A DNA stretch of 64,000 nt. Source: an uncultured Gammaproteobacteria bacterium. GTDB lineage: Bacteria; Patescibacteriota; Microgenomatia; UBA1406; HO2-37-13b. The DNA is taken from assembly GCA_964413645.1 (NCBI GenBank), contig CAYPSA010000005.1:2820-66819 (forward strand), written 5' to 3'. Below the pieces are notes generated by a model. It had not been told where the DNA came from, searched no databases, and saw nothing but the letters and a program-made list of their open reading frames with translations. Shown here piece after piece: positions 33,055-63,726 of the stretch; positions within the stretch are counted from its first letter, which is position 1, and each line of letters opens with the position of its first letter. A program made the position numbers and the translations under genes.

Positions 33055-33089
33055 CAAAATAGGTCATTGTTTTTTTGCCATTCTCGCGG

Positions 33090-33095: not shown

Positions 33096-33101
33096 ACCCG
33101 T

Positions 33102-33683: not shown

Positions 33684-33710
33684 TTTTTCGTTTTTTTAAT
33701 CTTTTTATAC

Positions 33711-33814: not shown

Positions 33815-33830
33815 GAGAATGATAGAGGAT

Positions 33831-34094: not shown

Positions 34095-34095
34095 A

Positions 34096-36353
<2,258 letters not shown>

Positions 36354-36355
36354 GG

Positions 36356-38424: not shown

Positions 38425-38425
38425 A

Positions 38426-38926
38426 TTATCCAAAAAACCCACCTTTTCCTGCTTTTTCTATAGCATCGATAACGAGTGATTCATGGGTTTTTACGTCAAT
38501 GGTTTTGCCTAGAACATTGTGGGCGATTTCAGTTACCTTTTTAGAAACAAGAGTGTCGAGTGCGAGTTCTTTAGATTTTTTGTATTCAGCCAATTCGGCC
38601 TGAACTTTTGTGAATTCTGCTGCAATTTTTGTTTCAAGTAATGCAGAGCTATCTGATAGCTGTTTTTGCACGTTCGTATTAAACTCCGCAAGAACTTTAT
38701 CGATACCTGCTTTCATTTCAGCGTCAAGACGTTTTACTTGAGTCTCGACCGCGGACTTCATACCAAGTGCTGTTTGCTCTTTTAATGAGTCGGTAAGTAA
38801 CTGTGTTTGGGTCAGTAGTTGCTGTGCGGCGTCAACGGCTTCTTTTATGATTGACTGCGCTTTTTTATGAGCATGTAAAACAATGTCCTCTTCACTTTGC
38901 TGATTTTTTCGTGAAAATATATTCAT
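38426..38926 (-). CDS. atpF: F-type ATPase peripheral-stalk subunit b-like protein lacking a TM helix
   Basis: 166-aa Ala/Lys/Glu/Gln-rich helical protein in the atpF position. No hydrophobic N-terminal segment is present (MNIFSRKNQQSEEDIVLHAHKKAQ...). Confidence 0.55.
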   Translation of the reverse strand: MNIFSRKNQQSEEDIVLHAHKKAQSIIKEAVDAAQQLLTQTQLLTDSLKEQTALGMKSAVETQVKRLDAEMKAGIDKVLAEFNTNVQKQLSDSSALLETKIAAEFTKVQAELAEYKKSKELALDTLVSKKVTEIAHNVLGKTIDVKTHESLVIDAIEKAGKGGFFG

Positions 38927-38928
38927 AG

Positions 38929-39765
<837 letters not shown>

Positions 39766-39890
39766 TTAAGGATTTGCCGAGAGAATTTTGAGTTTCTGCC
39801 TACGATTTCTAATTTTCCTATTGTAGTAATACGGCCTAATATACGGGTGGGGGTATACCGTATTTGATCCTGTTTTATAGCAATTTGCTC

Positions 39891-39919
39891 TTGATTTCCT
39901 TATTAATATTGATTAGTCT
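39891..39919 (+). promoter_or_regulatory. Promoter TTGATT-17-TAGTCT, 10 nt upstream of the giant-gene ATG
   Basis: TTGATT at 39891-39896 and TAGTCT at 39914-39919; the ATG is at 39930. No SD is visible. Confidence 0.4.
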
Positions 39920-39929
39920 GATATAAGCA

Positions 39930-42900: not shown

Positions 42901-45900
42901 CCGATGTTCTTTCAGCTTCAGGCCTTGGTGTTGGGGTAACTGCCTCATCTCTCACATCTGTCGGCCCACTCGGAAACCTAACAGTTACCGGTGCAATTGT
43001 TGGTAACGGTGGACTCACACTCGCCACAGGACAAACATTTACGATGAATGGGGATGCATTTACAGATTTAACCGGAAGTGGAATCATAATATCAGGAAAT
43101 GCACTAACAATCGGACTTACCACTTCTGGAACCACCGGCTCCACTTCATCCAACTCAGGTCTTGAGGTTGGATCTGCAGGACTCACATTACTCAAAGGCT
43201 GTACCGATGGAGAATTGCTCAAATACACCGATGCTGGCGGATGGGCATGTTCGGCTGATATCGATACTGATACTAACAGCGCAGGCTTCACCGATTTCGG
43301 AAGCATTGTAGCTCTTACCACAACCGCTGATAGTGTAGGAATAGGGACATCTTCTCCTGCAAATAAGTTGAGCGTAGTCGGTACTGCAGACATCTCAGGA
43401 AATCTTGGTATCGGAACAACAACGCCTGCATATAAACTTGATGTTGCAGGTTCAGCCAATCTTTCAACCGGTTCCACCTACAAAATCAATGGAACCGATG
43501 TATTATCAGGATCAACACTAGGATCAGGAATTACCGCCTCATCACTTACATCAGTCGGTACTCTTACCAACTTGGGAGTAGGTAACTCAGGCGCATTCGG
43601 TGGAGGAATTCTGGTCGGCGGAGAGACACTTACTGACTTTACCGGAAATGGTGTAACACTTTCATCTGGAGCGTTAACGGTGAATCTAACTTCCTCAGGA
43701 ACCACCGGTTCAACATCCTCTAATTCAGGTCTTGAGGTTGGATCTGCAGGACTCACATTACTCAAAGGCTGTACAGACGGTGAATTACTTAAATATACCG
43801 ATGCTGGTGGATGGGCGTGTGCTACCGATTCAAATTCGGGAAATGTTTCTGGCTTCACCGATTTCGGAAGTATCGTTGCTCTTACCACTACAGCAGATAA
43901 TCTCGGAGTCGGCACAAGCTCGCCAACGAACAAACTCTCAGTAGTCGGTACTGCAGACATCTCTGGAAATCTTGGAATCGGAACAACAACACCTGCGTAT
44001 AAACTTGATGTTGCAGGAAACACGAATCTCTCATCAGGATCAACATATAAGATAAACGGTACCGACGTACTCTCTGCTTCAGGACTTGGTGTGGGAGTAA
44101 CCGCCTCTTCTTTGACCAGCCTTGGAACGCTCGGAAACTTAACAGTCACCGGAGCAATTGTTGGAAATGGGGGGCTTACGCTAGCGGCCGGACAAACATT
44201 AAATTTCAATTCCGATGCTATTACTGATTTAACTGGAAATGGAATTGTGTTGAGCGGCGGTACATTAACGGTCGGGCTCACATCATCTGGAACCACTGGT
44301 TCTACCTCATCCAACTCGGGTCTTGAGGTTGGATCTGGTGGACTTACACTCCTTAAGGGTTGTATCGATGGAGAACTTCTCAAATACACCGATGCTGGTG
44401 GATGGGCGTGCGCAACAGACACCGATACTAACACAGGAAATATTTCAGGATTCACCGATTTCGGCTCAATCGTAGCTCTTACCACCACCGCTGACAACCT
44501 AGGAGTCGGAACATCTTCCCCAACCAACAAGCTCTCAGTCGTTGGTACCGCAGACATCTCAGGAAATCTTGGAATCGGAACAACCACTCCAGCTTTCAAG
44601 TTAGACGTTGCAGGCTCGGCCAACCTTTCATCAGGATCTACCTACAAAATCAATGGAACGGATGTCCTTTCAGGCAACACACTAGGCTCGGGAATTACCG
44701 CTTCCTCACTCACATCAGTCGGTACACTCACCAACCTTGGAGTAGGTAACTCTGGTTCATTTGGTGGAGGCCTGTTAGTTGGTGGACAAACACTCACCAA
44801 CTTCACTGGAAATGGCGTAACACTATCATCGGGAGCTCTTACCGTCAACCTCACCACCTCAGGAACCACTGGTTCAACATCCTCTAATTCTGGACTTGAG
44901 GTTGGATCAGGTGGACTTACACTCCTCAAAGGATGTACTGATGGAGAACTCTTGAAGTACACCGACGCAAGCGGTTGGGCATGTGCAGCAGACACCGACA
45001 CCGATACTAATACTTCAGGCTTCACCGATTTTGGCTCAATCGTAGCTCTTACCACCACCGCAGACAACCTCGGAGTCGGAACATCTTCCCCAACAAACAA
45101 ACTATCAGTCGTCGGTACCGCAGACATCTCTGGAAATCTTGGAGTTGGCACAACCACCCCTGCATACAAACTTGATGTAGTCGGATCTGCCAACCTTTCA
45201 GCTGGTTCTACCTACAAGATCAACGGAACCGATGTACTTTCTGCTTCTGGTCTAGGAGTTGGAGTCACCGCCTCATCACTCACCAGTCTCGGAACGCTCG
45301 GCAACGTAACAGTAACGGGTACTTCAGCCTTAAACGGTGGAATCACCTTCGATAGCTCAACTGATACAATCTCAGCTTTCACTGCTGGTGGTACCATCGA
45401 CTTGGCAACCAATCTCATAACCAACATTGGAAACGCAGGAACCGACTTTGTTGCTGGTGGAGGTTTAACTCTCGCTGGTGCATTTACTGCAAACAGTACC
45501 TCTGCCTTAAACGGAGCTACAACTCTTGGAGATGCTGCTGCTGATACCGTAACTAGTAACGCTGGAGTATGGTCATTCACCAATGCTACAACGGTTGATC
45601 TGGCCGATAGCTCTCGACAAGCACTTAACTTTGAATCTGGATTATTCAACCTTGACACACTTAATGGTCGAGTAGGTATAGGAACAACCACTCCAACCCA
45701 AAAACTCGACGTTGTAGGAAATGTGAATGTATCTTCTGGCTCAACCTACAAGATCGCCGGAACAGACGTTCTTTCCGGAAACACATTAGGTGCGGGAATT
45801 ACTACTTCATCATTAACTTCAGTTGGTACACTCACTAATTTAGGGGTCGGAAATTCCGGATCATTCGGCGGAGGAATACTCGTCGGAGGAGAGACACTTA

Positions 45901-48900
45901 CTGACTTTACCGGAAATGGCGTAACACTCTCTTCAGGAGCATTAACAGTAAATCTCACCACCTCAGGAACCACTGGTTCCACATCATCAAACTCAGGGTT
46001 GGAAGTTGGAAGTGGAGGACTCACATTACTCAAAGGCTGTACCGATGGAGAACTTCTCAAATACACCGACGCATCCGGCTGGGCATGTGCAACAGACACT
46101 GATACTAACACCGGCAATATTTCAGGCTTTACCGACTTCGGCTCAATCGTAGCTCTTACCACCACCACAGACAACCTCGGAGTCGGAACAAGTTCACCAA
46201 CCAACAAGCTCTCAGTAGTCGGTACTGCAGATATCTCTGGAAACTTGGGAGTCGGCACAACAACACCTGCATACAAACTTGATGTGGCAGGAAACACGAA
46301 TCTCTCATCTGGCTCCACCTACAAAATCAATGGAACCGATGTTCTTTCCGGAAACACACTAGGATCAGGAATTACGGCATCTTCTCTCACATCAGTCGGT
46401 ACACTCACAAACCTTGGAGTAGGGAACTCGGGTGCATTTGGTGGAGGCCTGTTAGTTGGTGGACAAACGCTTACCAACTTCACCGGAAATGGTGTAACAC
46501 TATCATCGGGAGCTCTTACCGTCAACCTCACCACCTCTGGAACAACCGGATCAACCTCCTCCAATTCAGGTTTGGAAGTTGGATCAGGAGGATTGACCCT
46601 ACTTAAAGGATGTTCTGATGGAGAAATTCTTAAATACACCGACGCAGGTGGATGGGCATGTGCCGCCGATGTTGATAACGATACAAACTCATCGGGCTTC
46701 ACTGATTTCGGAAGTATTGTCGCACTCACCACCACCGCAGATAACTTGGGAGTTGGTACAAGTTCACCAACTAACAAACTTTCAGTAGTCGGTACTGCAG
46801 ATATCTCAGGAAACCTTGGAGTTGGAACAACCACACCTGCGTACAAGCTCGAAATTATTGGAACTGGTAGACTTTCAGGTCTTCTTACCGCAAGCGCAGG
46901 AGTATCAATTAACTCAGAAACCGTTACTGACTTTAGTGGAAGCGGAATTGCAGTAACCGGAAATGCTCTAACGGTTAACTTGGCCACATCAGGAACAACC
47001 GGATCAACATCATCTAGCTCAGGGTTGGAGGTTGGTGCGGGAGGATTAACCTTACTTAAAGGATGTAATGATGGTGAAATTCTTAAATATACCGATGCCG
47101 GAGGATGGGCATGTGTGGCCGATGTTGATAATGATACAAACAATTCAGGATTTACTGATTACGGAAGCATTGTGGCCCTTACAACAACCGCCGATAGTGT
47201 AGGTATTGGAACATCATCTCCTGCAAATAAATTATCAGTAGTAGGAAGCGCCGATGTTTCTGGCAGCTTTGGAATTGGAACAACAGCACCAGCTTACAAC
47301 TTGGAAGTTATTGGTACTGGTCGAGTTTCCGGATTACTTACCGCAAGCTCAGGAGTATCTATTAATGGAGAAACAGTAACGGACCTTTCAGGAAGCGGAA
47401 TTGTACTTACCGGCAATGCATTAACGGTTAATCTAACAAACTCTGGAACAACCGGATCAACCTCCTCCAATTCAGGTTTGGAAGTTGGATCAGGAGGATT
47501 GACCCTACTTAAAGGATGTTCTGATGGAGAAATTCTTAAATACACCGACGCAGGTGGATGGGCATGTGCCGCTGATGTCGACAATGATACAAACTCATCA
47601 GGCTTCACCGATTTTGGCTCAATCGTTGCGATGACGACTTCAGCAGATAATTTGGGTGTTGGAACATCTTCGCCAACCAACAAGCTCTCGGTAGTAGGTA
47701 CTGCAGATATTTCAGGAAATCTTGGAGTTGGCACCACGATTCCAGCATACAAACTTGATGTAGTCGGATCTGCCAACCTTTCATCGGGCTCTACCTACAA
47801 AATCAATGGAACTGATGTTATCTCAGCCTCAGGACTTGGTGTGGGAGTAACCGCCTCATCTTTGACCAGCCTTGGTACACTTGGAAATGTAACCGTTGCC
47901 GGGGTTTCAGCTCTTAATGGTGGAATCACCTTTGATAACTCAACCGATACAATCTCAGCCTTTACCGCTGGTGGTACCATCGACTTGGCAACCAATCTCA
48001 TAACCAACATTGGAAACGCAGGAACCGACTTTGTTGCTGGTGGAGGTTTAACTCTCGCTGGTGCATTTACTGCAAACAGTACCTCTGCCTTAAACGGAGC
48101 TGTCACACTCGGAGACGCTTCATCCGATACCGTAACTAGCAACGCCGGAGTATGGTCTTTCACCAATGCAACAACGGTTGACTTAGCTGACAACGCTCGA
48201 GGAGCACTAAATTTCGAAGGTGGTTTACTTGCACTCGACACGCTCAATTCACGAATCGGTATTGGTACCACCACCCCAACACAAAAACTCGATGTCGTCG
48301 GAAATGTAAATGTATCATCCGGCTCCACCTACAAAATCAATGGAACTGATGTTCTCTCAGGTAATACTTTAGGTGCAGGAATTACCGCCTCATCACTCAC
48401 ATCAGTTGGTACACTCACCAACCTTGGAGTAGGTAACTCTGGTTCATTTGGTGGAGGCCTGTTAGTTGGTGGACAAACACTCACCAACTTCACTGGAAAT
48501 GGCGTAACACTATCATCGGGAGCTCTTACCGTCAACCTCACCACCTCAGGAACCACTGGTTCAACATCCTCTAATTCAGGTCTTGAGGTTGGATCAGGTG
48601 GACTTACACTCCTCAAAGGATGTACCGATGGGGAACTTCTCAAATACACCGACGCAGGTGGCTGGGCATGTGCAGCAGATACCGACACCGATACTAATAC
48701 TTCAGGCTTCACCGATTTCGGAAGCATCGTCGCCCTTACAACCACAGCCGACAACCTCGGAGTCGGAACATCTTCCCCAACCAACAAACTCTCAGTCGTT
48801 GGAAATGCTGATATCTCAGGAAACTTGGGAGTTGGAACAACCACTCCAGCATACAAACTTGATGTGGCAGGAAACACGAATCTCTCATCGGGATCAACAT

Positions 48901-51900
48901 ACAAGATAAATGGCACGGACGTGATTTCTGCTTCAGGGCTAGGAGTAGGAGTTACCGCTTCCTCACTCACCAGTCTTGGTACACTCGGAAATCTGACGGT
49001 CGCCGGAACATCAGCTCTTAATGGCGGTATTACGTTTGATAACTCAACTGATACAATCTCAGCCTTCACTGCCGGTGGAACCATTGACTTGGCAACTAAT
49101 CTCATAACCAACATTGGAAACGCAGGAACCGACTTCAGTGCCGGTGGAGGACTTACACTTGCTGGTGCATTCACGGCAAACAGCACAACCGCTCTTAACG
49201 GAGCCACTACTCTTGGAGACGCTGCTGCTGATACCGTAACCAGTAATGCGGGAGTATGGTCTTTCACCAATGCAACAACGGTTGATCTTGCCGATAGCTC
49301 ACGAGGAGCACTTAACTTTGAAGGTGGTTTACTTGCTCTTGACACTCTCAATTCACGCATCGGTATTGGAACAACAACTCCAACTCAAAAATTAGATGTT
49401 GCGGGAAACGTAAACATATCATCAGGATCAACATACAAAATCAATGGAACGGATGTCCTTTCAGCCTCGGGACTTGGTGTGGGAGTAACCGCCTCATCTT
49501 TGACCAGCCTTGGTACACTTGGAAATGTAACAGTAACCGGAACATCAGCCTTAAATGGCGGAATCACGTTTGATAGTGCAACCGATACAATCTCAGCTTT
49601 CACAGCTGGTGGTACCATCGACTTGGCAACTAACTTAATTACCAACATTGGCAACTCCGGTACCGACTTTATTGCTGGTGGAGGACTTACACTCGCCGGA
49701 GCATTCACCGCAAACAGCACATCTGCCTTAAATGGAGCCGTTACACTCGGAGATGCTTCATCCGACATGGTAACCAGTAATGCTGGAGTATGGTCTTTCA
49801 CAAATGCAACAACAGTGGATCTTGCAGACAACGCTCGAGGAGCACTGAATTTCGAAGGTGGTCTGTTAGCTCTGGACACTCTCAATTCACGAATTGGTAT
49901 CGGCACAACAACTCCAACACAAAAACTTGATGTTGTAGGAAATGTGAATGTATCTTCTGGCTCAACCTACAAGATCGCTGGAACAGACGTTCTTTCAGGT
50001 AATACTTTAGGTGCAGGCATAACAGCCTCATCACTCACATCCGTCGGCACTCTCACCAACCTTGGAGTAGGCAACTCGGGATCATTCGGTGGAGGCCTGT
50101 TAGTTGGTGGACAAACACTAACCAACTTTACCGGAAATGGTGTAACACTCTCATCTGGAGCTCTTACCGTCAATCTCACCACCTCTGGAACCACCGGATC
50201 CACATCATCCAATTCTGGACTTGAGGTTGGAAGTGGGGGGCTTACACTCCTCAAAGGCTGTACCGATGGAGAACTTCTCAAATACACCGACGCTTCCGGC
50301 TGGGCATGTGCAACTGACACCGATACTAACACCGGAAATATTTCAGGATTCACCGATTTCGGAAGTATTGTCGCACTCACCACCACCGCAGATAACTTAG
50401 GAGTCGGAACATCTTCCCCAACTAACAAGCTCTCGGTAGTCGGTACCGCAGACATCTCAGGAAATCTTGGAGTTGGTACAACGACTCCAGCATACAAGCT
50501 TGATGTTGCAGGTTCAGCCAACCTTTCAACTGGTTCCACCTACAAAATAAACGGTACCGACGTACTCTCAGCCTCAGGTCTTGGTGTTGGAGTAACCGCC
50601 TCATCTTTGACCAGCCTTGGTACACTTGGAAATGTAACAGTCACCGGAACATCAGCCTTAAACGGTGGAATCACCTTCGACAGCTCAACCGACACCATTT
50701 CAGCTTTCACTGCCGGTGGAACCATTGATCTTGCAACCAATCTCATTACTAACATTGGTAATGCTGGAACCGACTTTGTTGCTGGTGGAGGTTTAACTCT
50801 CGCAGGAGCATTCACCGCAAACAGTACCTCTGCCTTAAACGGAGCTACTACTCTTGGAGATGCTGCTGCTGATACCGTAACCAGCAACGCTGGAGTGTGG
50901 GTATTTAGTAATGCAACAACGGTTGATCTTGCGGATAGTTCACGAGGAGCACTGAATTTCGAAGGTGGCTTACTTGTGCTCGATACTCTTAATAGTAGAA
51001 TTGGAATCGGCACTACAACTCCAACTCAAAAACTCGATGTCGTCGGAAATGTGAATGTATCCTCAGGTTCTACCTACAAAATCAATGGAACCGATGTTCT
51101 TTCCGGAAACACACTAGGATCAGGAGTAACCGCATCTTCTCTCACATCAGTCGGTACACTCACCAACCTTGGAGTAGGGAACTCGGGTGCATTTGGTGGA
51201 GGCCTGTTAGTTGGTGGACAAACGCTTACCAACTTCACCGGAAATGGTGTAACACTTTCATCTGGAGCGTTAACGGTGAATCTAACCGCATCAGGAACAA
51301 CCGGATCCACATCATCCAACTCAGGGTTGGAAGTTGGAAGTGGAGGACTTACGCTCCTTAAGGGCTGTTCGGATAATGAATTACTCAAGTATACCGATGC
51401 TTCTGGATGGGCTTGTGCGGTTGATATTGATACGACAGGTGCAAACGTTTCAGGATTCACTGATTTCGGAAGTATTGTCGCACTCACCACCACCGCAGAT
51501 AACCTAGGTGTTGGAACATCTTCTCCAACCAACAAACTCTCAGTCGTCGGTAACGCAGATATCTCTGGAAATCTTGGAATCGGTACAACCACTCCAGCAT
51601 ACAAACTTGATGTGGCAGGAAACACGAATCTCTCATCAGGATCAACATACAAAATCAACGGAACGGATGTTATCTCAGCCTCTGGTCTAGGAGTAGGAGT
51701 AACCGCCTCATCACTCACCAGTCTTGGAACACTCGGCAACGTAACAGTAACGGGTACTTCAGCCTTAAACGGCGGAATCACGTTTGATAGTGCAACCGAT
51801 ATAATCTCAGCTTTCACTGCTGGTGGAACCATTAATATGGCGACGAATATAATTACTGATATCGGTGATGCCGGAACCGACTTCATTGCCGGTGGAGGAC

Positions 51901-54900
51901 TCACGCTTGCCGGAGCATTCACTGCAAATAGCACGGCGGTACTTAACGGAGCAGTCACTCTCGGAGATGTTGCGGCTGATACCGTAACTGCAAATGCAGG
52001 CGTATGGTCATTTGCAAATGCCACAACGGTAAATCTTGCGGATAGCGCTCGTGGAGCATTAAACTTCGAAGGTGGCTTACTTGCGCTCGACACTCTTAAT
52101 AGTAGAATCGGTATTGGCACAACAACCCCAACAACAACGCTTGATGTCGTCGGCACTGGTAAATTTTCAGGCCTTCTCACTGCCAGCTCAGGATTGTCTA
52201 TAAATTCAGAAACAGTTACCGACTTTAGTGGAAGCGGCATTGTTGTTACGGGAAATGCTTTAACAGTGAATCTAACTTCCTCAGGAACCACCGGATCAAC
52301 CTCATCCAACTCAGGACTTGAGGTTGGATCAGCGGGTCTAACACTTCTTAAAGGCTGTGCCGATGGAGAGATTCTTGAATACACGGACGCAGGTGGTTGG
52401 GCATGTGCGGTTGATTCTGATACTGGAAACATTTCTGGATTCACTGATTTCGGAAGCATCGTCGCACTCACCACCACCGCAGACAACCTCGGAGTCGGAA
52501 CATCTTCCCCAACCAACAAGCTCTCAGTCGTCGGTACTGCAGATATTTCTGGAAACTTGGGAGTTGGTACAACCACTCCTGCATACAAACTTGATGTTGC
52601 GGGTAATACTAATCTCTCATCAGGCTCCACCTACAAAATCAATGGAACCGATGTTCTTTCAGCCTCAGGACTTGGTGTTGGAGTCACGGCCTCATCACTC
52701 ACCAGTCTTGGCACACTCGGAAACGTAACAGTTGCCGGAGTTTCTGCCTTAAACGGTGGAATCACGTTTGACAATTCAACCGACACCATTTCTGCCTTCA
52801 CTCTTGGTGGTACCCAAGACGCAGCAACAAACCTAATCGTTAACATTGGCGACAATGGAACAGACTTCATTGCCGGTGGAGGACTTACCCTTGCAGGAGC
52901 ATTCACCGCAAACAGCACAAGCGCATTAAACGGAGGAGTTACATTGGGCGATGCTTCAGACGACACAGTGACCAGCAACGCCGGAATATGGTCATATGCC
53001 AACTCCACAACCATCGACCTCGTTAACAGTGCTCGAAATGCGCTTAACATCGAAGGCGGACTTCTTTCACTCGATACCCTCAACAGCCGAGTTGGTATTG
53101 GTTCAAGCAGCTCACTTGCCGGACTTGATGTACAAACAACCGCATGGCTTCGAGGAGCAGTTGCAGGTACATCAGGACTATACGTAAACGGATCTGGAAA
53201 TGTAGGTATCGGAATCACCATGCCGCAAAACAAACTCGATGTATCTGGTTCTGTGGCATTTGGCTCATTACCAACCAATCAGCTTCCACAAGCAAATTCT
53301 GCTTACTTCTCAGGAAATGTTGGAATTGGAACAACTAATCCACAAGCAAATCTTAATGTAGCTAACAACTCCCTTTCTACCGGAACCGGTCTATTGGTCA
53401 GCTCAACATCAACATCATTCTCATCGGGCAAACTTGCAAGTATCGATTGGAGTCCATCATCAGCAACTACAGCAACGGGCGATGTACTTTCGGTTAATGT
53501 AGGTGTCAATGGAGTAGTCGGTAACATTTTCAATGTTATGGATGGTGGTTCGAGTGTCTTCTCGGTTAGTCAAAGTGTTATAACGGCAGGATTGCCAGTC
53601 AACTTTACAGCACCTGGCGATGTCGGAATCGCCTATGACTTATTATTTAGCAACCAAACAGCTTCAAATATTAAATCATATGGGCCGCTTACCATCGAAT
53701 CAGGCGAAAGTTTCGAATCGAATTATTTGACGCTCAAAACATACAATTCTGGACAAATAGTCTTTGATGCACCAGGAGGAATTCTATTGGCACAAGCACA
53801 GCCATGGACACTAGCTACTAGCGCACAAGCACTTAATATCCAAAATGGATTGCTTAATCTCGACACAACGAATAGTCGAGTTGGAATCGGAACAAGTAAT
53901 CCACTTGCTGGTTTTGATGTTCATAATACCGCATGGCTTCGAGGAGCAGCTTCAGGTGCATCAGGACTGTATGTAAATGGATCGGGAAATGTAGGGATTG
54001 GAACAAGCGCACCTAAGAATAAATTAGATGTTTCCGGATCAGTCGCATTTGGCTCGTTACCAACCAATCCACTTCCACAAGCCAACAGTGCCTATTTCTC
54101 AGGAAATCTCGGTATTGGAACAACAAATCCTGGATATAAGTTAGACGTAGCCGGTACAGTAAACATATCATCAGGCTCCACCTACAAAATCAATGGAACC
54201 GATGTTCTTTCAGCCTCAGGACTTGGTGTTGGAGTCACGGCCTCATCACTCACCAGTCTTGGCACACTCGGAAACGTAACAGTTGCCGGAGTTTCTGCCT
54301 TAAACGGTGGAATCACGTTTGACAATTCAACCGACACCATTTCTGCCTTCACTCTTGGTGGTACCCAAGACGCAGCAACAAACCTAATCGTTAACATTGG
54401 CGACAATGGAACAGACTTCATTGCCGGTGGAGGACTTACCCTTGCAGGAGCATTCACCGCAAACAGCACAAGCGCATTAAACGGAGGAGTTACATTGGGC
54501 GATGCTTCAGACGACACAGTGACCAGCAACGCCGGAATATGGTCATATGCCAACTCCACAACCATCGACCTCGTTAACAGTGCTCGAAATGCGCTTAACA
54601 TCGAAGGCGGACTTCTTTCACTCGATACCCTCAACAGCCGAGTTGGTATTGGTTCAAGCAGCTCACTTGCCGGACTTGATGTACAAACAACCGCATGGCT
54701 TCGAGGAGCAGTTGCAGGTACATCAGGACTATACGTAAACGGATCTGGAAATGTAGGTATCGGAATCACCATGCCGCAAAACAAACTCGATGTATCTGGT
54801 TCTGTGGCATTTGGCTCATTACCAACCAATCCGCTTCCACAATCCAACAGTGCCTATTTCTCAGGAAATGTAGGTATTGGAACAACCAACCCAGGATTTG

Positions 54901-57110
54901 GATTGGAAGTAAATGGAACAGCACGAGTTAATGGAGCGGTAACATTTGGAGATGCATCGAGTGATACGGTTACATCAACAGCAGGTGCATGGACATTCTC
55001 AAATGCATCAACATTCGATCTTGCAAATTCTCAATTAAATGCGCTTAACTTTGAATCAGGCTTGCTCAATATCGACACATCTGGTTCTACCGTTGGTATT
55101 GGAACAACTGTTCCTACTGCAAAATTAAGTGTGCTACAAACCGGATCAGCAAACGCATTCTTAGTACAAGATGTTGCGAGCGACACAACACCATTTGTAA
55201 TCGATGCAAGCGGACGAGTTGGAATTGGAACCACCACTCCAAGTGACAGTATATCATTGGAAGTCGTAGGCGACACGCGCTTGGGTGGTAATATTTCTCG
55301 AAATGCCCATGGTTCTAACAATCTTAATGACCAGGGAAGCATTTCGCCAAACGGTGGGTTTGAAGGTCTAACGGCATCAGGCGCAAACTTGCCTGATGAC
55401 TGGGCTGATGTCGATTCAGGAGCTACCGTAAGTACAACCCAAGTTGCACAAGGAGACCGATCATTGCGCATGTCATCATTAAACGATGAAGTTATGAGTA
55501 CGTGTTATCCGGCGACTGGTGGAAATACCTTGAACTTTAATATGTCTTCCTATTTAACATCAGGTGATACTACGCGATTACGTATGAGAGAATATACAAC
55601 ACTTGCAAACTGTACGGCGAATACAAGTCCTACAACAACCGACACAACTGCATGTACGGGCGTTGGAGCTTCACCAGTATGGGCTACATGTAGCGCTGCT
55701 CAAGTACTTGTTGCTGGAACACGATGGATGCGTACTGGAATATATTTTCATACGAAATCAAGTACGCACGTATATGTAGACTCAGTTAGAGTGACCCAAA
55801 ACGCACTTACAAATGGTCTTGATTTAGCAGAAACATATCCTGCGGCAAAAGCTGATGGAATTAAAGTTGGTGAGATCGTATCGTTTGGAAGAGCTAACAA
55901 GCAAGTCGGCGCAGACGTGAATAATGTCACTCGATCATCAAAAGCATATGATAATTTGGCCTTTGGAATTGTTTCTACTAAGCCAGGAATCGTGCTCGAT
56001 GACCAAGGTGCAAGTGAGAAAGTTCAAGTAGCCCTTAAAGGTCGAGTTCCGGTGCTCGTTTCAACTGAAAATGGACCAATCAAAATCGGCGATCCAATTG
56101 TTGCTTCAAGCAAGCCGGGTGTGGGTATGAAAGCTACTAAAGCTGGAAAGATATTAGGATACGCCATGACCGAGTTTGTAAATACTGATCCATCAGTAAT
56201 TGATCAAGTTATCGTATTCGTTGAAAGCTCATGGTTTGATCCAAGCTTGGCTTTGGGAAGCACGGGCGATGTTAATGGAGTGGCTTCAACTTATGCTAGC
56301 TTAAGCCCAAATAATACTGATGACGTTGCAAAAGACTTGGTTAAAATTAGTAGTGATTTTGAAAAGCTTACCCTTTCGATGAATGCGCTTGATAGTAAGG
56401 TTGAAGGTGTGGAGGGTGAAGTTGGTAAACTCAGCAGTGAAAATACATCGCTTACCGCTCGACTTTCAAGTCTTGAAGATAAATTAAAGCAACTTGAAGA
56501 AGGTGGAGCAGTTCTAGGAATTGGATCGACTAATCCACAGCTTTCAGGCGAATCTATTGCAAGTGCTTCAGCCGCTCTTGATGACGCCGATTCACTTATT
56601 GACGGCACAGAGTCTAAGCTCTCTGAGCTCACCGTGACTGGCTTGGCTAAACTTAACAACTTGAATGTAATTGGCGACGCCACATTTGGAATGATGCAAA
56701 TCGTGGGAATTGATCCAAATGATGGATCGAACATTGACACTATAGCCGGTCCATTACGACTACAAGCAACTGCACTTAATGATTTAGATATTATGAATGG
56801 CAAAGTTTTGGTAACAACCGATGGAAATATTATTACAAAAGGCCAAATTACTGCTAAAAAATTGAACATTAGTACTCAAGATGATGCTGAAGATAACAGT
56901 GTCGGTGTGGCTAAATTGCTTAAAGGAACCAAAAAGGTAATTGTGAAGACAACTGCAATCACTGCAAAGTCACATGTGTTTGTAACGCCAAAGACATTGC
57001 TCGATTATCCATTAGTTGTAACTGTTCTTGAGCCTCAAACCTCATTTACGGTTGAAGTGAAATCGAGTGAAGATAAAGATGTCGAATTCGACTGGTTCAT
57101 TGTGAACTAA
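39930..57110 (+). CDS. Giant (5,726-aa) membrane-anchored, Gly/Thr/Ser-rich mosaic-repeat fibre/adhesin-like surface protein
   Basis: One uninterrupted 17,181-nt ORF with an N-terminal hydrophobic anchor (ILAGLVLLVSSTVASL). About 14.6 kb consists of shuffled repeat modules. The non-repeat C-terminus has a jelly-roll/CBM-like segment, a coiled coil and a conserved terminal domain ending FDWFIVN. Confidence 0.85.
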   Translation: MNHFFQQTASILAGLVLLVSSTVASLPEKFHDFTSKFSYKPPVTSPAKKKTAQSQKSFPAVLAATIDRTKTGVTFTIPAFFKDLVTLDSSLEVNGPSTFNDKVTLTNQDLDLGTGELTASNVLYGLTAGNGILISEGQTPEIKLDLNVVSSISGRTGDVDLEEGSGISIDGLEITNSDKGSAQNIFKTFSVSGQSDIVANSNTSKLTFVAGEGTVLTTDATAKTLTITSNFNNSGWVDEGAIIRLSGISDSVGIGTSSPANKLSVVGNTDISGNLGIGTTTPAYKLDVAGNANLSSGSTYKINGADVLSASGLGVGVTASSLTSLGTLGNVTVTGTSALNGGITFDNATDTISAFTAGGTINLANNLITNVGNAGTDFTASGGLTLAGLLTASSGISLDAETVTDFSGNGIVVTSNSLFVNLTTSSNTGATSSNSGLEVGTAGLTLLKGCSDGELLKYTDAGGWACSTDIDTTSGSASGFTDFGSIVALITSADNLGVGTSSPTNKLSVVGTADISGNLGVGTTTPGYKLDVAGNANLASGFTYKVNGNDVLSGTTLGVGVTSSSLTQLGALGNLTVTGAIVGNGGLTLAAGQTLNVNSDAITDLTGNGIVLSGGTLTVGLTSSGTTGSSSSNSGLEVGSAGLTLLKGCSDNELLKYTDASGWACAIDIDTTGANLAGFTDFGSIVALTTTADNLGVGTSSPTNKLSVVGTADISGNLGIGTTAPAYKLDVAGNVNLSTGSTLKINGTDVLSASGLGVGVTASSLTSLGTLGNVTVTGVSALNGGITFDSTTDTISAFTAGGTINMATNIITDIGNSGTDFTGAGGLNLAGLLTALSGVSINSETVTDFSGSGISVSGNALTVNLTSSGTTGSTSSNSGLEVGSGGLTLLKGCTDGELLKYTDAGGWACATDTDTNTNTSGFTDFGSIVALTTTADNLGVGTSSPTNKLSVVGNTDISGNLGVGTTTPAYKLDVAGSTNLSSGSTYKINGTDVLSASGLGVGVTASSLTSVGPLGNLTVTGAIVGNGGLTLATGQTFTMNGDAFTDLTGSGIIISGNALTIGLTTSGTTGSTSSNSGLEVGSAGLTLLKGCTDGELLKYTDAGGWACSADIDTDTNSAGFTDFGSIVALTTTADSVGIGTSSPANKLSVVGTADISGNLGIGTTTPAYKLDVAGSANLSTGSTYKINGTDVLSGSTLGSGITASSLTSVGTLTNLGVGNSGAFGGGILVGGETLTDFTGNGVTLSSGALTVNLTSSGTTGSTSSNSGLEVGSAGLTLLKGCTDGELLKYTDAGGWACATDSNSGNVSGFTDFGSIVALTTTADNLGVGTSSPTNKLSVVGTADISGNLGIGTTTPAYKLDVAGNTNLSSGSTYKINGTDVLSASGLGVGVTASSLTSLGTLGNLTVTGAIVGNGGLTLAAGQTLNFNSDAITDLTGNGIVLSGGTLTVGLTSSGTTGSTSSNSGLEVGSGGLTLLKGCIDGELLKYTDAGGWACATDTDTNTGNISGFTDFGSIVALTTTADNLGVGTSSPTNKLSVVGTADISGNLGIGTTTPAFKLDVAGSANLSSGSTYKINGTDVLSGNTLGSGITASSLTSVGTLTNLGVGNSGSFGGGLLVGGQTLTNFTGNGVTLSSGALTVNLTTSGTTGSTSSNSGLEVGSGGLTLLKGCTDGELLKYTDASGWACAADTDTDTNTSGFTDFGSIVALTTTADNLGVGTSSPTNKLSVVGTADISGNLGVGTTTPAYKLDVVGSANLSAGSTYKINGTDVLSASGLGVGVTASSLTSLGTLGNVTVTGTSALNGGITFDSSTDTISAFTAGGTIDLATNLITNIGNAGTDFVAGGGLTLAGAFTANSTSALNGATTLGDAAADTVTSNAGVWSFTNATTVDLADSSRQALNFESGLFNLDTLNGRVGIGTTTPTQKLDVVGNVNVSSGSTYKIAGTDVLSGNTLGAGITTSSLTSVGTLTNLGVGNSGSFGGGILVGGETLTDFTGNGVTLSSGALTVNLTTSGTTGSTSSNSGLEVGSGGLTLLKGCTDGELLKYTDASGWACATDTDTNTGNISGFTDFGSIVALTTTTDNLGVGTSSPTNKLSVVGTADISGNLGVGTTTPAYKLDVAGNTNLSSGSTYKINGTDVLSGNTLGSGITASSLTSVGTLTNLGVGNSGAFGGGLLVGGQTLTNFTGNGVTLSSGALTVNLTTSGTTGSTSSNSGLEVGSGGLTLLKGCSDGEILKYTDAGGWACAADVDNDTNSSGFTDFGSIVALTTTADNLGVGTSSPTNKLSVVGTADISGNLGVGTTTPAYKLEIIGTGRLSGLLTASAGVSINSETVTDFSGSGIAVTGNALTVNLATSGTTGSTSSSSGLEVGAGGLTLLKGCNDGEILKYTDAGGWACVADVDNDTNNSGFTDYGSIVALTTTADSVGIGTSSPANKLSVVGSADVSGSFGIGTTAPAYNLEVIGTGRVSGLLTASSGVSINGETVTDLSGSGIVLTGNALTVNLTNSGTTGSTSSNSGLEVGSGGLTLLKGCSDGEILKYTDAGGWACAADVDNDTNSSGFTDFGSIVAMTTSADNLGVGTSSPTNKLSVVGTADISGNLGVGTTIPAYKLDVVGSANLSSGSTYKINGTDVISASGLGVGVTASSLTSLGTLGNVTVAGVSALNGGITFDNSTDTISAFTAGGTIDLATNLITNIGNAGTDFVAGGGLTLAGAFTANSTSALNGAVTLGDASSDTVTSNAGVWSFTNATTVDLADNARGALNFEGGLLALDTLNSRIGIGTTTPTQKLDVVGNVNVSSGSTYKINGTDVLSGNTLGAGITASSLTSVGTLTNLGVGNSGSFGGGLLVGGQTLTNFTGNGVTLSSGALTVNLTTSGTTGSTSSNSGLEVGSGGLTLLKGCTDGELLKYTDAGGWACAADTDTDTNTSGFTDFGSIVALTTTADNLGVGTSSPTNKLSVVGNADISGNLGVGTTTPAYKLDVAGNTNLSSGSTYKINGTDVISASGLGVGVTASSLTSLGTLGNLTVAGTSALNGGITFDNSTDTISAFTAGGTIDLATNLITNIGNAGTDFSAGGGLTLAGAFTANSTTALNGATTLGDAAADTVTSNAGVWSFTNATTVDLADSSRGALNFEGGLLALDTLNSRIGIGTTTPTQKLDVAGNVNISSGSTYKINGTDVLSASGLGVGVTASSLTSLGTLGNVTVTGTSALNGGITFDSATDTISAFTAGGTIDLATNLITNIGNSGTDFIAGGGLTLAGAFTANSTSALNGAVTLGDASSDMVTSNAGVWSFTNATTVDLADNARGALNFEGGLLALDTLNSRIGIGTTTPTQKLDVVGNVNVSSGSTYKIAGTDVLSGNTLGAGITASSLTSVGTLTNLGVGNSGSFGGGLLVGGQTLTNFTGNGVTLSSGALTVNLTTSGTTGSTSSNSGLEVGSGGLTLLKGCTDGELLKYTDASGWACATDTDTNTGNISGFTDFGSIVALTTTADNLGVGTSSPTNKLSVVGTADISGNLGVGTTTPAYKLDVAGSANLSTGSTYKINGTDVLSASGLGVGVTASSLTSLGTLGNVTVTGTSALNGGITFDSSTDTISAFTAGGTIDLATNLITNIGNAGTDFVAGGGLTLAGAFTANSTSALNGATTLGDAAADTVTSNAGVWVFSNATTVDLADSSRGALNFEGGLLVLDTLNSRIGIGTTTPTQKLDVVGNVNVSSGSTYKINGTDVLSGNTLGSGVTASSLTSVGTLTNLGVGNSGAFGGGLLVGGQTLTNFTGNGVTLSSGALTVNLTASGTTGSTSSNSGLEVGSGGLTLLKGCSDNELLKYTDASGWACAVDIDTTGANVSGFTDFGSIVALTTTADNLGVGTSSPTNKLSVVGNADISGNLGIGTTTPAYKLDVAGNTNLSSGSTYKINGTDVISASGLGVGVTASSLTSLGTLGNVTVTGTSALNGGITFDSATDIISAFTAGGTINMATNIITDIGDAGTDFIAGGGLTLAGAFTANSTAVLNGAVTLGDVAADTVTANAGVWSFANATTVNLADSARGALNFEGGLLALDTLNSRIGIGTTTPTTTLDVVGTGKFSGLLTASSGLSINSETVTDFSGSGIVVTGNALTVNLTSSGTTGSTSSNSGLEVGSAGLTLLKGCADGEILEYTDAGGWACAVDSDTGNISGFTDFGSIVALTTTADNLGVGTSSPTNKLSVVGTADISGNLGVGTTTPAYKLDVAGNTNLSSGSTYKINGTDVLSASGLGVGVTASSLTSLGTLGNVTVAGVSALNGGITFDNSTDTISAFTLGGTQDAATNLIVNIGDNGTDFIAGGGLTLAGAFTANSTSALNGGVTLGDASDDTVTSNAGIWSYANSTTIDLVNSARNALNIEGGLLSLDTLNSRVGIGSSSSLAGLDVQTTAWLRGAVAGTSGLYVNGSGNVGIGITMPQNKLDVSGSVAFGSLPTNQLPQANSAYFSGNVGIGTTNPQANLNVANNSLSTGTGLLVSSTSTSFSSGKLASIDWSPSSATTATGDVLSVNVGVNGVVGNIFNVMDGGSSVFSVSQSVITAGLPVNFTAPGDVGIAYDLLFSNQTASNIKSYGPLTIESGESFESNYLTLKTYNSGQIVFDAPGGILLAQAQPWTLATSAQALNIQNGLLNLDTTNSRVGIGTSNPLAGFDVHNTAWLRGAASGASGLYVNGSGNVGIGTSAPKNKLDVSGSVAFGSLPTNPLPQANSAYFSGNLGIGTTNPGYKLDVAGTVNISSGSTYKINGTDVLSASGLGVGVTASSLTSLGTLGNVTVAGVSALNGGITFDNSTDTISAFTLGGTQDAATNLIVNIGDNGTDFIAGGGLTLAGAFTANSTSALNGGVTLGDASDDTVTSNAGIWSYANSTTIDLVNSARNALNIEGGLLSLDTLNSRVGIGSSSSLAGLDVQTTAWLRGAVAGTSGLYVNGSGNVGIGITMPQNKLDVSGSVAFGSLPTNPLPQSNSAYFSGNVGIGTTNPGFGLEVNGTARVNGAVTFGDASSDTVTSTAGAWTFSNASTFDLANSQLNALNFESGLLNIDTSGSTVGIGTTVPTAKLSVLQTGSANAFLVQDVASDTTPFVIDASGRVGIGTTTPSDSISLEVVGDTRLGGNISRNAHGSNNLNDQGSISPNGGFEGLTASGANLPDDWADVDSGATVSTTQVAQGDRSLRMSSLNDEVMSTCYPATGGNTLNFNMSSYLTSGDTTRLRMREYTTLANCTANTSPTTTDTTACTGVGASPVWATCSAAQVLVAGTRWMRTGIYFHTKSSTHVYVDSVRVTQNALTNGLDLAETYPAAKADGIKVGEIVSFGRANKQVGADVNNVTRSSKAYDNLAFGIVSTKPGIVLDDQGASEKVQVALKGRVPVLVSTENGPIKIGDPIVASSKPGVGMKATKAGKILGYAMTEFVNTDPSVIDQVIVFVESSWFDPSLALGSTGDVNGVASTYASLSPNNTDDVAKDLVKISSDFEKLTLSMNALDSKVEGVEGEVGKLSSENTSLTARLSSLEDKLKQLEEGGAVLGIGSTNPQLSGESIASASAALDDADSLIDGTESKLSELTVTGLAKLNNLNVIGDATFGMMQIVGIDPNDGSNIDTIAGPLRLQATALNDLDIMNGKVLVTTDGNIITKGQITAKKLNISTQDDAEDNSVGVAKLLKGTKKVIVKTTAITAKSHVFVTPKTLLDYPLVVTVLEPQTSFTVEVKSSEDKDVEFDWFIVN
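52617..53280 (+). repeat. 664-bp perfect direct repeat, copy A (partner 54168-54831; offset 1551 bp = 517 codons)
   Basis: A line-by-line comparison of 52617-53280 with 54168-54831 shows no mismatch. The flanks diverge at 52616/54167 and at 53281/54832. Identical 63-aa track ORFs at 52996 and 54547 confirm the match. Confidence 0.9.
54168..54831 (+). repeat. 664-bp perfect direct repeat, copy B
   Basis: See copy A. Confidence 0.9.
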
Positions 57111-57160
57111 GCCTCTTGAATTTAGCTCCTCATTTCAGTACCCTTATTTAAATTGTATAT

Positions 57161-63649: not shown

Positions 63650-63654
63650 TAAGG

Positions 63655-63726
63655 TGTCCCGAGAGGGAATTGAACCCCCATTTAACCCTTAGGACGGGCT
63701 TGTTCTATCCATTGAACTACCGGGAC
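63655..63726 (-). tRNA. tRNA-Arg (anticodon CCU)
   Basis: The reverse complement is GTCCCGGTAGTTCAATGGATAGAACAAGCCCGTCCTAAGGGTTAAATGGGGGTTCAATTCCCTCTCGGGACA. It folds as a canonical cloverleaf: 7-bp acceptor stem, D stem GTTC/GAAC, anticodon stem AGCCC/GGGTT with loop GTCCTAA, and T arm GGGGG-TTCAATT-CCCTC. The 3' CCA is not encoded. Confidence 0.9.

What the first reader, a model, noticed from the sequence alone, without database searches (positions are those of the whole stretch)
52617..54831. 664-bp perfect in-frame duplication inside the giant gene, plus other long identical tracts
Positions 52617-53280 and 54168-54831 are identical base for base. They are offset by 1551 bp (exactly 517 codons), while the sequence between and around them has diverged. 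Other long identical or near-identical tracts exist. About 200 bp around 44741 matches 48428 at an offset of 3687 bp (1229 codons). About 130 bp near 46548 matches 47450. All these offsets keep the frame. This points to very recent duplication or ongoing gene conversion, which would give a substrate for repeat expansion, contraction and sequence variation of the fibre. It is also a warning that short-read assembly of this gene may be collapsed or rearranged.
Basis: seen in the sequence. Interest (0 to 1): 0.6.

Follow-up and report, generated by a model that had tools for sequence, protein, structure and literature searches.

The report
Recent copy-paste inside giant fibre gene
A 664-base stretch really does occur twice, letter for letter and in frame, inside a 17-kb gene for a giant cell-surface fibre of an ultra-small (Patescibacteria) bacterium; this is the ordinary footprint of a recent copying event between repeated modules, not a new kind of system.

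Summary
Window 52617-53280 equals 54168-54831 exactly (664 bp, offset 1551 bp = 517 codons). The match extends on neither side. Four to five shorter in-frame identity tracts of 92-170 bp also exist.

All lie in one ORF (39930-57110, 5,726 aa). It encodes a modular Gly/Thr/Ser-rich fibre that resembles Bdellovibrio "MAT" trimeric adhesive fibres and phage tail fibres. It has a CBM-like tip domain and a phi29-gp12/Peptidase_G2-like C-terminal autochaperone. The host is a Roizmanbacteria-like Patescibacteria bacterium.

The other module copies are 79-95% identical in protein but only 71-84% in DNA, so the repeats are old. The 664-bp tract is therefore a recent outlier. It has short, diverged, in-register homology on both sides, and it is much shorter than the 1551-bp offset. 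That fits gene conversion or segmental copying, not a simple tandem duplication.

Independent k=31 short-read contigs break exactly at the repeat edge 54831|54832, so that junction is real. The copy number and the strict perfection of the identity could not be checked without reads. Relatives carry similar tracts.

This is a known phenomenon in a new gene. Interest is modest.

The parts
39930..57110 (+). Giant ORF of 5,726 aa encoding a modular Gly/Thr/Ser-rich fibre protein. It has a hydrophobic N-terminal signal or anchor, about 50 copies of the G-[IV]-G-[TS] capping-loop motif, and module grammar A-G-G-K-{B|D}-[C-G-K]-{T}-E-W.
   Evidence: Coding in this frame is supported by high protein identity with low DNA identity between modules. 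It is also supported by gene calls on the Logan contigs.
52617..53280 (+). Copy 1 of the 664-bp exact repeat. It encodes aa 4230-4450 (module block K-B-C-G-Q-G).
54168..54831 (+). Copy 2 of the 664-bp exact repeat. It encodes aa 4747-4967, an identical 221 aa.
   Evidence: The right edge 54831|54832 is a graph branch in an independent k=31 assembly.
53281..54167 (+). 887-bp spacer between the copies. It holds a unique beta-rich domain plus a third, diverged Q module (78% DNA identity to Q1). Recombination between the two copies would delete it in frame together with one copy.
   Evidence: There is a weak Phage_T4_gp36 match, E 0.004, below Pfam's cut-off. The AF2 model is of low confidence.
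52540..52616 (+). Left flank of copy 1. It is homologous in register to 54091-54167 but only about 65% identical, mostly through synonymous differences in the SGNLG[VI]GTT.P.YKLDVAG motif.
54832..54891 (+). Right flank of copy 2. It is homologous in register to 53281-53340 at about 80% identity. Homology is lost beyond it.
44721..44890 (+). 170-bp exact tract, equal to 48408-48577 (offset 3687). It extends to 254 bp with 6 mismatches.
45384..45518 (+). 135-bp exact tract, equal to 47967-48101 (offset 2583).
46535..46666 (+). 132-bp exact tract, equal to 47441-47572 (offset 906).
46410..46501 (+). 92-bp exact tract, equal to 51165-51256 (offset 4755). A 54-bp tract lies next to it at the same offset.
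   Evidence: This one is borderline against the chance expectation.
55401..55799 (+). Beta-sandwich domain resembling carbohydrate-binding modules (CBM4/22/16). It is the putative distal tip of the mature fibre.
   Evidence: AF2 model, pLDDT 75-83. Foldseek hits to PDB CBMs at E about 1e-5.
55821..56249 (+). Conserved 'DLAETYPA...GRVPVLVSTENGPIKIGDPIV.SSKPGVGMKATKAG' domain. It is the putative phi29-gp12 / Peptidase_G2-type intramolecular chaperone, and D5298 is the putative cleavage-site residue.
   Evidence: pLDDT 84-97; 3SUC, E 1.7e-4; aligns with residue 1 of 3GQH, E 0.16; E 1e-9 to a window protein that carries a Pfam Peptidase_G2 hit.
56322..56516 (+). Predicted long helix (coiled coil).
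   Evidence: Weak coiled-coil family matches.
56895..57101 (+). C-terminal domain matching Pfam K1-lyase_C (PF24146).
   Evidence: 28.9 bits against a cut-off of 27, E 1.6e-6. AF2 pLDDT 83-92.

Best explanation
The 664-bp identity is the footprint of a recent, non-reciprocal intragenic recombination event. Most likely this was a gene-conversion tract, and less likely a segmental copy anchored in short conserved motifs. The event occurred between two older, already paralogous K-B-C-G-Q module blocks of a giant modular surface-fibre gene in a Roizmanbacteria-like Patescibacteria bacterium.

The gene is a mosaic of about 60 modules. They are kept similar at the protein level by purifying selection but have drifted apart at synonymous sites. 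Occasionally, recombination that starts in the conserved 'G-I-G-T-T-x-P-x-x-K-L-D-V' motifs overwrites one module block with another. The 664-bp tract is the youngest and longest such event. The 130-250-bp tracts are other examples.

**Shown:** the exact identity, its in-frame position, the diverged in-register flanks, the old divergence of all other copies, the reality of one repeat junction in independent reads, and analogous tracts in relatives.

**Inferred:**
- The mechanism, taken to be homologous recombination or template switching.
- The consequence. The two perfect direct repeats are now a substrate for in-frame loss or gain of the 1551-bp (517-aa) unit that contains the unique middle domain.
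- The function. The protein is taken to be a trimeric, host- or substrate-binding fibre whose C-terminal chaperone is cleaved off at D5298.
For: - Exact 664-bp identity with no extension on either side.
- Chance expectation for the longest exact run is 44-61 bp, maximum 89.
- The other seven K-B-C-G copies are 71-84% identical in DNA and 79-95% in protein. Of their conserved codons, 37-58% are synonymous variants. The pair inside the tract shows 0%.
- The identity length (664 bp) is well below the offset (1551 bp), and the 887-bp spacer is not duplicated downstream. This excludes a simple recent tandem duplication.
- In-register flanking homology of about 65% (left) and about 80% (right) marks older paralogy around the tract.
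- The sister genome L003 has the orthologous Q module and the same right junction, at 81% DNA identity. A module of this type therefore already sat at the copy-2 site before the two species split, yet the two copies within this genome are identical.
- Logan contigs of run SRR8893623 match the window with 0 mismatches. They end at 41670 and start at 54802. These are exactly the first and last k=31 branch points predicted from the window sequence.
- Relatives carry their own tracts. L004 has about 680 bp at about 94% with a 209-bp exact core (offset 984). L022 has 185 bp. L006 has 527 bp and L009 has 270 bp, both in other long G/T/S-rich ORFs.
- Nature of the gene: profile hits to Bdellovibrio MAT fibres 8OND, 8ON4, 8OL4 and 8OJN. 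The motif matches the capping-loop consensus of PMC10769870.
- Organism.
Against: - No reads were available. Three of the four repeat junctions, the copy number and the strict perfection of the identity rest on the deposited assembly alone.
- The donor and the recipient cannot be told apart, because the only close relatives are truncated inside the gene.
- A two-step route gives the same end state. It would be unequal crossing-over followed by deletion between the Q tails.
- Flanking homology is short (60-75 bp), so 'conversion between equal-length paralogues' and 'insertion of a copied segment' are not cleanly separable.
- The functional reading rests on weak to moderate homology: E 4e-5 to MAT fibres, E 0.16 to 3GQH, and monomer AF2 models with pLDDT 56-67.
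Confidence: 0.75

Rival explanations
1. Assembly or polishing artefact. In the real genome the two segments are only similar and were homogenised by bubble-popping or consensus. Or the number of copies differs, because a tandem array of 1551-bp units was collapsed to the minimal path or a loop was wrongly traversed.
For: - The repeat is longer than short reads and longer than the usual maximum k.
- k=31 assemblies shatter the gene into dozens of unitigs.
- The contigs of relatives end inside the gene.
- The source is an NCBI MAG contig of 105 kb whose assembly method is unknown.
- An X-A-B-A-Z graph fixes the order but not how many times the A-B loop is traversed.
Against: - The A|Z junction at 54831|54832 is a true branch in an independent assembly, at exactly the predicted base.
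- The unique 887-bp spacer is flanked by A on both sides, so any linear solution needs at least two copies of A.
- At k of about 100 or more, only four nested repeat pairs remain, and they allow a single traversal order (reasoned).
- The tract edges are sharp and fall to 65-80% identity, which is not the pattern of a collapsed repeat.
- Independent MAGs from other studies show the same kind of tract.
Confidence: 0.12
2. Two-step unequal crossing-over. First, a tandem duplication of the whole 1551-bp unit through recombination between the G-G-K motif and the Q2 tail. Then a deletion of the second spacer through recombination between Q tails. This would be true duplication rather than conversion.
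For: - The conserved motifs at both tract edges could serve as crossover points.
- Three Q tails with the shared 'SLPTN.LPQ.NSAYFSGN.GIGTTNP' motif exist.
Against: - It needs two independent recent events with no intervening substitution in 664 bp.
- L003 shows that the Q3-tail to C-terminal junction predates the species split. The copy-2 site was therefore not created recently.
Confidence: 0.12
3. A programmed variation system. This could be cassette-type conversion from silent donors, or a diversity-generating retroelement, acting on the fibre.
For: - The fibre is probably a surface adhesin, a class often subject to variation.
- Several conversion-like tracts exist.
Against: - All exact repeats of at least 40 bp lie within the one ORF, so there are no silent cassettes elsewhere in the 64 kb.
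- The copies are identical rather than differing at adenines.
- No reverse transcriptase or recombinase was found among the window ORFs scanned with Pfam.
Confidence: 0.03

Closest known systems
Bdellovibrio bacteriovorus MAT (mosaic adhesive trimeric) fibres: Bd2133, Bd1334, Bd2439, Bd2734, Bd3182 (Caulton et al. 2024, PMC10769870; PDB 8OND, 8ON4, 8OL4, 8OJN)
   Same: - N-terminal signal-like segment.
- A long fibre built from repeats carrying the capping-loop motif V-G-[GN]-pi-x-x-P-x-x-x-L, seen here as 'VGIGTTTPAYKL' about 50 times.
- Mosaic, modular build with a distinct C-terminal tip.
- These are the best profile hits in the PDB.
   Different: - About 5.5 times longer (5,726 aa against about 1,000 aa).
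- No S74 chaperone domain. It has a G2/phi29-gp12-like one instead.
- The conserved MAT N-terminal domain was not tested, and trimer formation was not shown.
- The host is a Patescibacteria bacterium, not a predatory proteobacterium.
Phage phi29 pre-neck appendage gp12 / Pfam Peptidase_G2 intramolecular chaperone (PDB 3GQH, 3SUC)
   Same: - The conserved C-terminal domain starts with D-L-A-E-x-Y. This aligns with D-F-A-E-Y-F, the first residues of the released gp12 autochaperone.
- Fold hit to 3SUC.
- Homologous (E 1e-9) to a window protein that matches PF11962.
   Different: - The giant protein itself does not reach any Pfam Peptidase_G2 score.
- The PDB sequence match is weak (E 0.16).
- Autocleavage is untested.
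Repeat homogenisation and length variation in bacterial surface proteins (for example streptococcal alpha C/Rib, staphylococcal SasG/Aap, enterococcal Esp; own knowledge) and intragenic homogenisation in spidroin genes (PMC3933166, seen)
   Same: In-frame repeats in a surface or fibrous protein gene, kept or made identical at the DNA level by recombination. This gives substrates for in-frame expansion and contraction.
   Different: - In those genes, whole tandem arrays are near-identical in DNA.
- Here almost all modules are strongly diverged at synonymous sites.
- Only a few dispersed two-copy tracts are identical, so homogenisation is rare and local.
Giant repeat-rich genes in uncultivated bacteria (West-Roberts et al. 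2023 preprint, 10.1101/2023.11.21.568195)
   Same: A very long surface-associated ORF whose repeats fragment short-read assemblies.
   Different: That work concerns proteins above 30,000 aa, mainly in Omnitrophota, with other domain types. The text search of that preprint found no mention of 'tail fiber' or 'Patescibacteria'.

Membership tests
Gene-conversion tract between intragenic paralogues | An identity tract far longer than the divergence of the paralogues allows | tested here: met
   664 bp exact, against paralogue identity of 71-84% and an expected longest run of 44-61 bp.
Gene-conversion tract between intragenic paralogues | The tract is embedded in older, diverged, in-register homology on both sides | tested here: met
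   Left flank about 75 bp at about 65%. Right flank about 60 bp at about 80%. No homology beyond. The flanks are short.
Gene-conversion tract between intragenic paralogues | Not explained by a simple tandem duplication, in which the identity length would equal the period | tested here: met
   664 bp identical against a 1551-bp offset. The spacer 53281-54167 has no copy after 54831.
Gene-conversion tract between intragenic paralogues | Paralogues within a genome are closer to each other than to their positional orthologues in a sister genome | tested here: inconclusive
   The L003 orthologue of the tail of copy 2 is 81% identical to both copies. The L003 contig is cut before the copy-1 position.
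Assembly artefact (false or collapsed repeat) | Repeat junctions have no support in independent read data | tested here: not met
   Junction 54831|54832 is a branch in the Logan k=31 assembly of SRR8893623, at exactly the predicted base. The other three junctions could not be checked, because partial proteins are absent from the look-up tables.
Assembly artefact (false or collapsed repeat) | Coverage step or discordant pairs at the repeat edges | not testable with these tools
   No read mapping is available.
MAT / S74-type beta-helical trimeric fibre | Repeated capping-loop motif V-G-[GN]-pi-x-x-P-x-x-x-L | tested here: met
   About 50 G-[IV]-G-[TS] cores. Profile hits to 8OND (E 4e-5), 8ON4, 8OL4 and 8OJN through this motif. 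Consensus taken from PMC10769870.
MAT / S74-type beta-helical trimeric fibre | C-terminal Peptidase_S74 chaperone (S74 subgroup) | tested here: not met
   No PF13884 hit in the giant protein. Some distant homologues do have it. This would place the protein with the non-S74 type.
MAT / S74-type beta-helical trimeric fibre | Homotrimeric intertwined beta-helix | not testable with these tools
   Only monomer AF2 was available. The model of the repeat region has pLDDT 56.
MAT / S74-type beta-helical trimeric fibre | Conserved beta-rich domain of about 130 aa after the signal peptide | not tested
   Only the hydrophobic N-terminus was noted.
Peptidase_G2 / phi29 gp12 intramolecular chaperone | Match to Pfam PF11962 above its cut-off | tested here: not met
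   No hit in the giant protein, even at E of 10 or less. The paralogous window protein 13165-16479 does hit it (29.8 bits, cut-off 25) and aligns with the giant's domain at E 1e-9.
Peptidase_G2 / phi29 gp12 intramolecular chaperone | D-[FL]-A-E-x-[YF] motif at the start of the released chaperone, with a gp12-like fold | tested here: inconclusive
   The motif DLAETY at aa 5298 aligns with residue 1 of 3GQH, but at E 0.16. Foldseek hit to 3SUC at E 1.7e-4.
Diversity-generating retroelement target | Template and variable repeat pair differing at adenines, with a reverse transcriptase nearby | tested here: not met
   The copies are identical. No reverse transcriptase among the ORFs scanned.

The most novel reading that the evidence does not exclude
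The giant fibre gene may be held stable by synonymous divergence of its roughly 60 modules, while rare intragenic conversion events act as a module-shuffling mechanism. On this reading, the present 664-bp perfect direct repeats form a population-level, in-frame present/absent switch for the 517-aa unit that carries the unique middle domain. That would change the length or binding properties of a host-attachment fibre in an episymbiotic Patescibacteria bacterium.
Probability: 0.15. Interest if true: 0.55.

Novelty: new member of a known kind. Interest (0 to 1): 0.3.

Why it matters
**Practical.** This gene is a reliable place for short-read assemblies to break or to mis-count copies. Module number and order should not be taken from short-read MAGs without long reads. 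The analysis gives the exact junctions to test.

**Biological.** A 5,726-aa fibre is a large investment for an organism from a lineage known for small genomes (own knowledge; genome size was not measured here). It probably mediates attachment. The gene evolves mainly by slow divergence under protein-level constraint, with occasional block overwriting. This differs from the fully homogenised tandem arrays of many pathogen adhesins.

The perfect repeats predict 1551-bp in-frame deletion or triplication variants that could be looked for in populations. None of this is a new principle.

Tried and rejected
- **JGI metagenome contigs.** An exact 44-mer from inside the repeat found nothing. A protein-based scan found only distant relatives at 45% identity or less.
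- **Viral contigs.** No relative of the C-terminal region.
- **Interior Logan unitigs.** I tried to recover 52634-53280 and 53251-54197 through their predicted partial proteins. The exact sequences are not in the protein collection, and neither are the two positive controls. The three interior junctions therefore stay unverified.
- **Protein search with the spacer region.** It returned only homologues at 51% identity or less, with no identical fragments.
- **AF2 of the spacer region.** pLDDT 56, too poor for a fold search.
- **Family scans of the repeat region.** Pfam and NCBIfam gave nothing. PHROGs gave only short motif-level tail-fibre matches.
- **Literature search for the SRA runs.** No paper found.
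- **Readings considered and rejected.** DGR, silent-cassette system and simple tandem duplication (see rivals).
- **Antisense ORFs.** The long ORFs across the gene are taken as composition artefacts, because the conservation pattern fits the + frame.
- **Minus-strand coordinate error.** The first minus-strand look-ups failed because my coordinates dropped the start codon. This was corrected.
Full report
**1. Observation**

Window 52617-53280 and 54168-54831 are identical over 664 bp, and the match cannot be extended by a single base on either side. The offset is 1551 bp, which is 517 codons.

A full listing of exact repeats of at least 40 bp in the 64-kb window gives 31 pairs. All lie between 41641 and 54831, and all have offsets divisible by three. 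After the 664-bp pair, the longest are:
- 170 bp (44721 / 48408, offset 3687).
- 135 bp (45384 / 47967, offset 2583).
- 132 bp (46535 / 47441, offset 906).
- 92 bp (46410 / 51165, offset 4755).

Allowing 3 mismatches per 90 bp, these become tracts of 686, 254, 161, 152 and 142 bp. It missed two further tracts.

**2. Is it more than chance?**

The repeats sit in a gene made of paralogous modules, so the right null is the divergence between modules. Self-BLAST HSPs have a median identity of 76% and a 95th percentile of 83%. A simulation at those identities over about 20 registers x 17 kb gives longest exact runs of 44-61 bp on average, with a maximum of 89.

The 664-bp tract and the 130-170-bp tracts are far outside this range. 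The many 40-60-bp matches are not.

**3. The gene**

All tracts lie in one ORF, 39930-57110 on the + strand, of 5,726 aa. The protein is 15% Gly, 15% Thr and 12% Ser, and has a hydrophobic N-terminus (MNHFFQQTASILAGLVLLVSSTVASLP).

The body is a mosaic of a handful of module types, which I labelled A, G, K, B, C, D, T, E, W and Q. They are arranged as A-G-G-K-{B|D}-[C-G-K]-{T}-E-W. The duplicated tract encodes the block K-B-C-G-Q-G (aa 4230-4450 and aa 4747-4967).

The eight K-B-C-G blocks have equal length and align without gaps. They are 79-95% identical in protein but only 71-84% in DNA. Of the codons that encode the same amino acid, 37-58% are different synonymous codons. For the pair inside the tract, that figure is zero.

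This shows three things. The + frame is the coding frame. The modules are old duplicates under purifying selection. The 664-bp identity is young.

**4. What kind of event?**

A recent tandem duplication, or a single unequal crossover, would make two adjacent 1551-bp units identical. Here only 664 bp are identical, and the 887-bp spacer (53281-54167) has no copy downstream of 54831.

The tract is bracketed by homology in the same register that has diverged. On the left this is about 75 bp at about 65% identity (SGNLG[VI]GTT.P.YKLDVAG). On the right it is about 60 bp at about 80% (.LPQ.NSAYFSGNVGIGTTNP). Beyond these flanks the sequences are unrelated. This is what a conversion tract between two pre-existing paralogous blocks looks like.

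A third Q module in the spacer is 78% identical to the converted ones. The closest relative, L003, is 88% identical in protein over the C-terminal 626 aa and has a syntenic downstream gene. It carries the orthologous Q module with the same junction to the C-terminal region, at 81% DNA identity. A block of this type therefore already occupied the copy-2 site when the two species split, yet the two copies within this genome are now identical.

I cannot tell donor from recipient. I also cannot exclude a two-step duplication-plus-deletion route, because the L003 and L004 contigs are cut inside the gene.

**5. Is the assembly to be trusted?**

The window's proteins occur on an NCBI contig of 105,147 bp. 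Exactly matching Logan (k=31) contigs come from runs SRR8893623 and SRR8893624:
- SRR8893623_408004 equals window 28488-41670.
- SRR8893623_421986 equals window 54802-63701.

Both have no mismatch.

Building the k=31 graph from the window alone predicts unitigs 1-41670 and 54802-end, with the gene in between broken into dozens of pieces. Among these pieces are 52634-53280 (identical to 54185-54831) and 53251-54197. The two observed contig ends coincide to the base with the first and last predicted branch points.

Base 54831|54832 is therefore a real repeat boundary in independent reads. Since the unique spacer is flanked by the repeat on both sides, any linear genome needs at least two copies.

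At k of about 100 or more, only four repeat pairs remain (664, 170, 135 and 132 bp). The three smaller pairs are nested, which allows only one traversal order (reasoning).

Some points remain open:
- Loop multiplicity, meaning the true number of 1551-bp units.
- Whether consensus building erased a few real differences.
- The three interior junctions. I could not reach these because partial proteins are not indexed.

**6. Relatives show the same behaviour**

- L004, a Candidatus Roizmanbacteria MAG, has about 680 bp at about 94% identity with a 209-bp exact core, at an offset of 984 bp. It lies in the orthologous gene but at a different place.
- L022 has 185-bp and 160-bp exact in-frame repeats in a gene of the same motif family.
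- L006 has a 527-bp exact in-frame repeat and L009 a 270-bp one, in other long G/T/S-rich ORFs.

These are independent assemblies from other studies.

**7. What the protein is**

Pfam finds nothing in the repeat region. A profile of the C-terminal homologues hits the Bdellovibrio MAT fibre structures 8OND (E 4e-5), 8ON4, 8OL4 and 8OJN through the GNVGIGTxxPxxKLxV motif. That motif is the capping-loop consensus V-G-[GN]-pi-x-x-P-x-x-x-L of trimeric beta-helical fibres described by Caulton et al. (PMC10769870).

The last 626 aa fold, at moderate AF2 confidence, into four parts:
- A CBM4/22/16-like beta-sandwich (Foldseek E about 1e-5).
- A highly conserved domain beginning DLAETYPA at aa 5298.
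- A long helix.
- A K1-lyase_C domain (PF24146, 28.9 bits against a cut-off of 27).

The DLAE domain has three links to the phi29 gp12 autochaperone:
- It aligns from its first residue with residue 1 of the released phi29 gp12 autochaperone (3GQH, DFAEYF...; E 0.16).
- It hits premature gp12 (3SUC) by fold (E 1.7e-4).
- It is homologous (E 1e-9) to a second fibre-like protein in the window, which matches Pfam Peptidase_G2.

My inference is a giant surface fibre, probably trimeric, whose C-terminal about 430 aa act as an intramolecular chaperone. After cleavage, the CBM-like domain would be the distal tip. This is homology-based and not proven.

**8. Organism**

The window carries housekeeping genes: Fmt, TyrRS/TrpRS-class synthetases, Rho, NusG, L1, SHMT, LeuRS, F-type ATP synthase, ComEA/ComEC and prepilin peptidase. 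All named LeuRS homologues are from Patescibacteria, Microgenomates or Roizmanbacteria. The named homologues of the fibre's C-terminus are nearly all from Patescibacteria too, apart from one Elusimicrobia MAG.

**9. Consequence (inferred)**

Two perfect 664-bp direct repeats 1551 bp apart are a good substrate for homologous recombination. The products would be in-frame loss or gain of a 517-aa unit that includes the unique middle domain. Elsewhere the gene offers only short exact runs, so it should be comparatively stable.

**10. Verdict**

Intragenic conversion or duplication in a repetitive surface-protein gene is well known, and this is a new instance in a poorly characterised Patescibacteria fibre family. 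Interest is modest (0.3). The main value is as an assembly caveat and a testable prediction of length variants.

Noticed in passing
window 57161-63649 (+): A 2,162-aa protein with eight Laminin_G_3 (ConA-like lectin) domains starts 50 bp after the giant gene, on the same strand. It is syntenic in L003 but absent downstream in L004. It may be a second surface or adhesion protein in the same operon.
   Followed up: partly
window 13165-16479 (-) and 11122-13164 (-): A second fibre-like protein of 1,104 aa has a GIGTTNP motif, DFAEYF at aa 534 and a Pfam Peptidase_G2 IMC hit. A 680-aa TPR protein follows it. Its IMC region is homologous to the giant's C-terminal domain (E 1e-9).
   Followed up: partly
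window 39930-52400, E-W modules (for example aa 446-466): Thirty of the giant protein's 34 cysteines form 15 regularly spaced pairs, 'LLKGC-x15-GWAC', one per E-W module. These may be disulfide-bonded loops along the fibre. The other four cysteines lie in the CBM-like tip domain.
   Followed up: no
window 40826-54847 (-): About 20 long antisense ORFs of 157-518 aa tile the giant gene. They are probably artefacts of its codon composition, with few antisense stop codons, and not genes.
   Followed up: partly
window 63653-63726 (-); Logan contigs L001 and L002: Both Logan contigs end at 63701, inside tRNA-Arg(CCT). The window itself has no repeat there. This suggests a branch caused by another tRNA copy or by strain variation elsewhere in the genome.
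   Followed up: no
L003 (CAYQYZ010000005.1): The record is titled 'uncultured Gammaproteobacteria bacterium'. Yet it is syntenic with this Patescibacteria region and 78-88% identical to it, covering the fibre C-terminus and the Laminin_G_3 gene. The record is probably mislabelled or the contig mis-binned. Its contig ends 198 bp inside the equivalent of copy 2, which hints that this genome also has a repeat there.
   Followed up: partly
window 56250 and 39752; Logan contigs of SRR8893624: The contigs from the second run stop at 56250 and 39752, where the window has no repeated 30-mer. This is probably low coverage in that sample rather than structure.
   Followed up: no
window 18649-20972 (+) and about 32206-33054: ComEA-like, ComEC-like and metallo-beta-lactamase-fold genes are present, and a prepilin peptidase (A24) was called on the Logan contig. 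This is DNA-uptake and pilus machinery. From my own knowledge, such machinery is typical of Patescibacteria.
   Followed up: no
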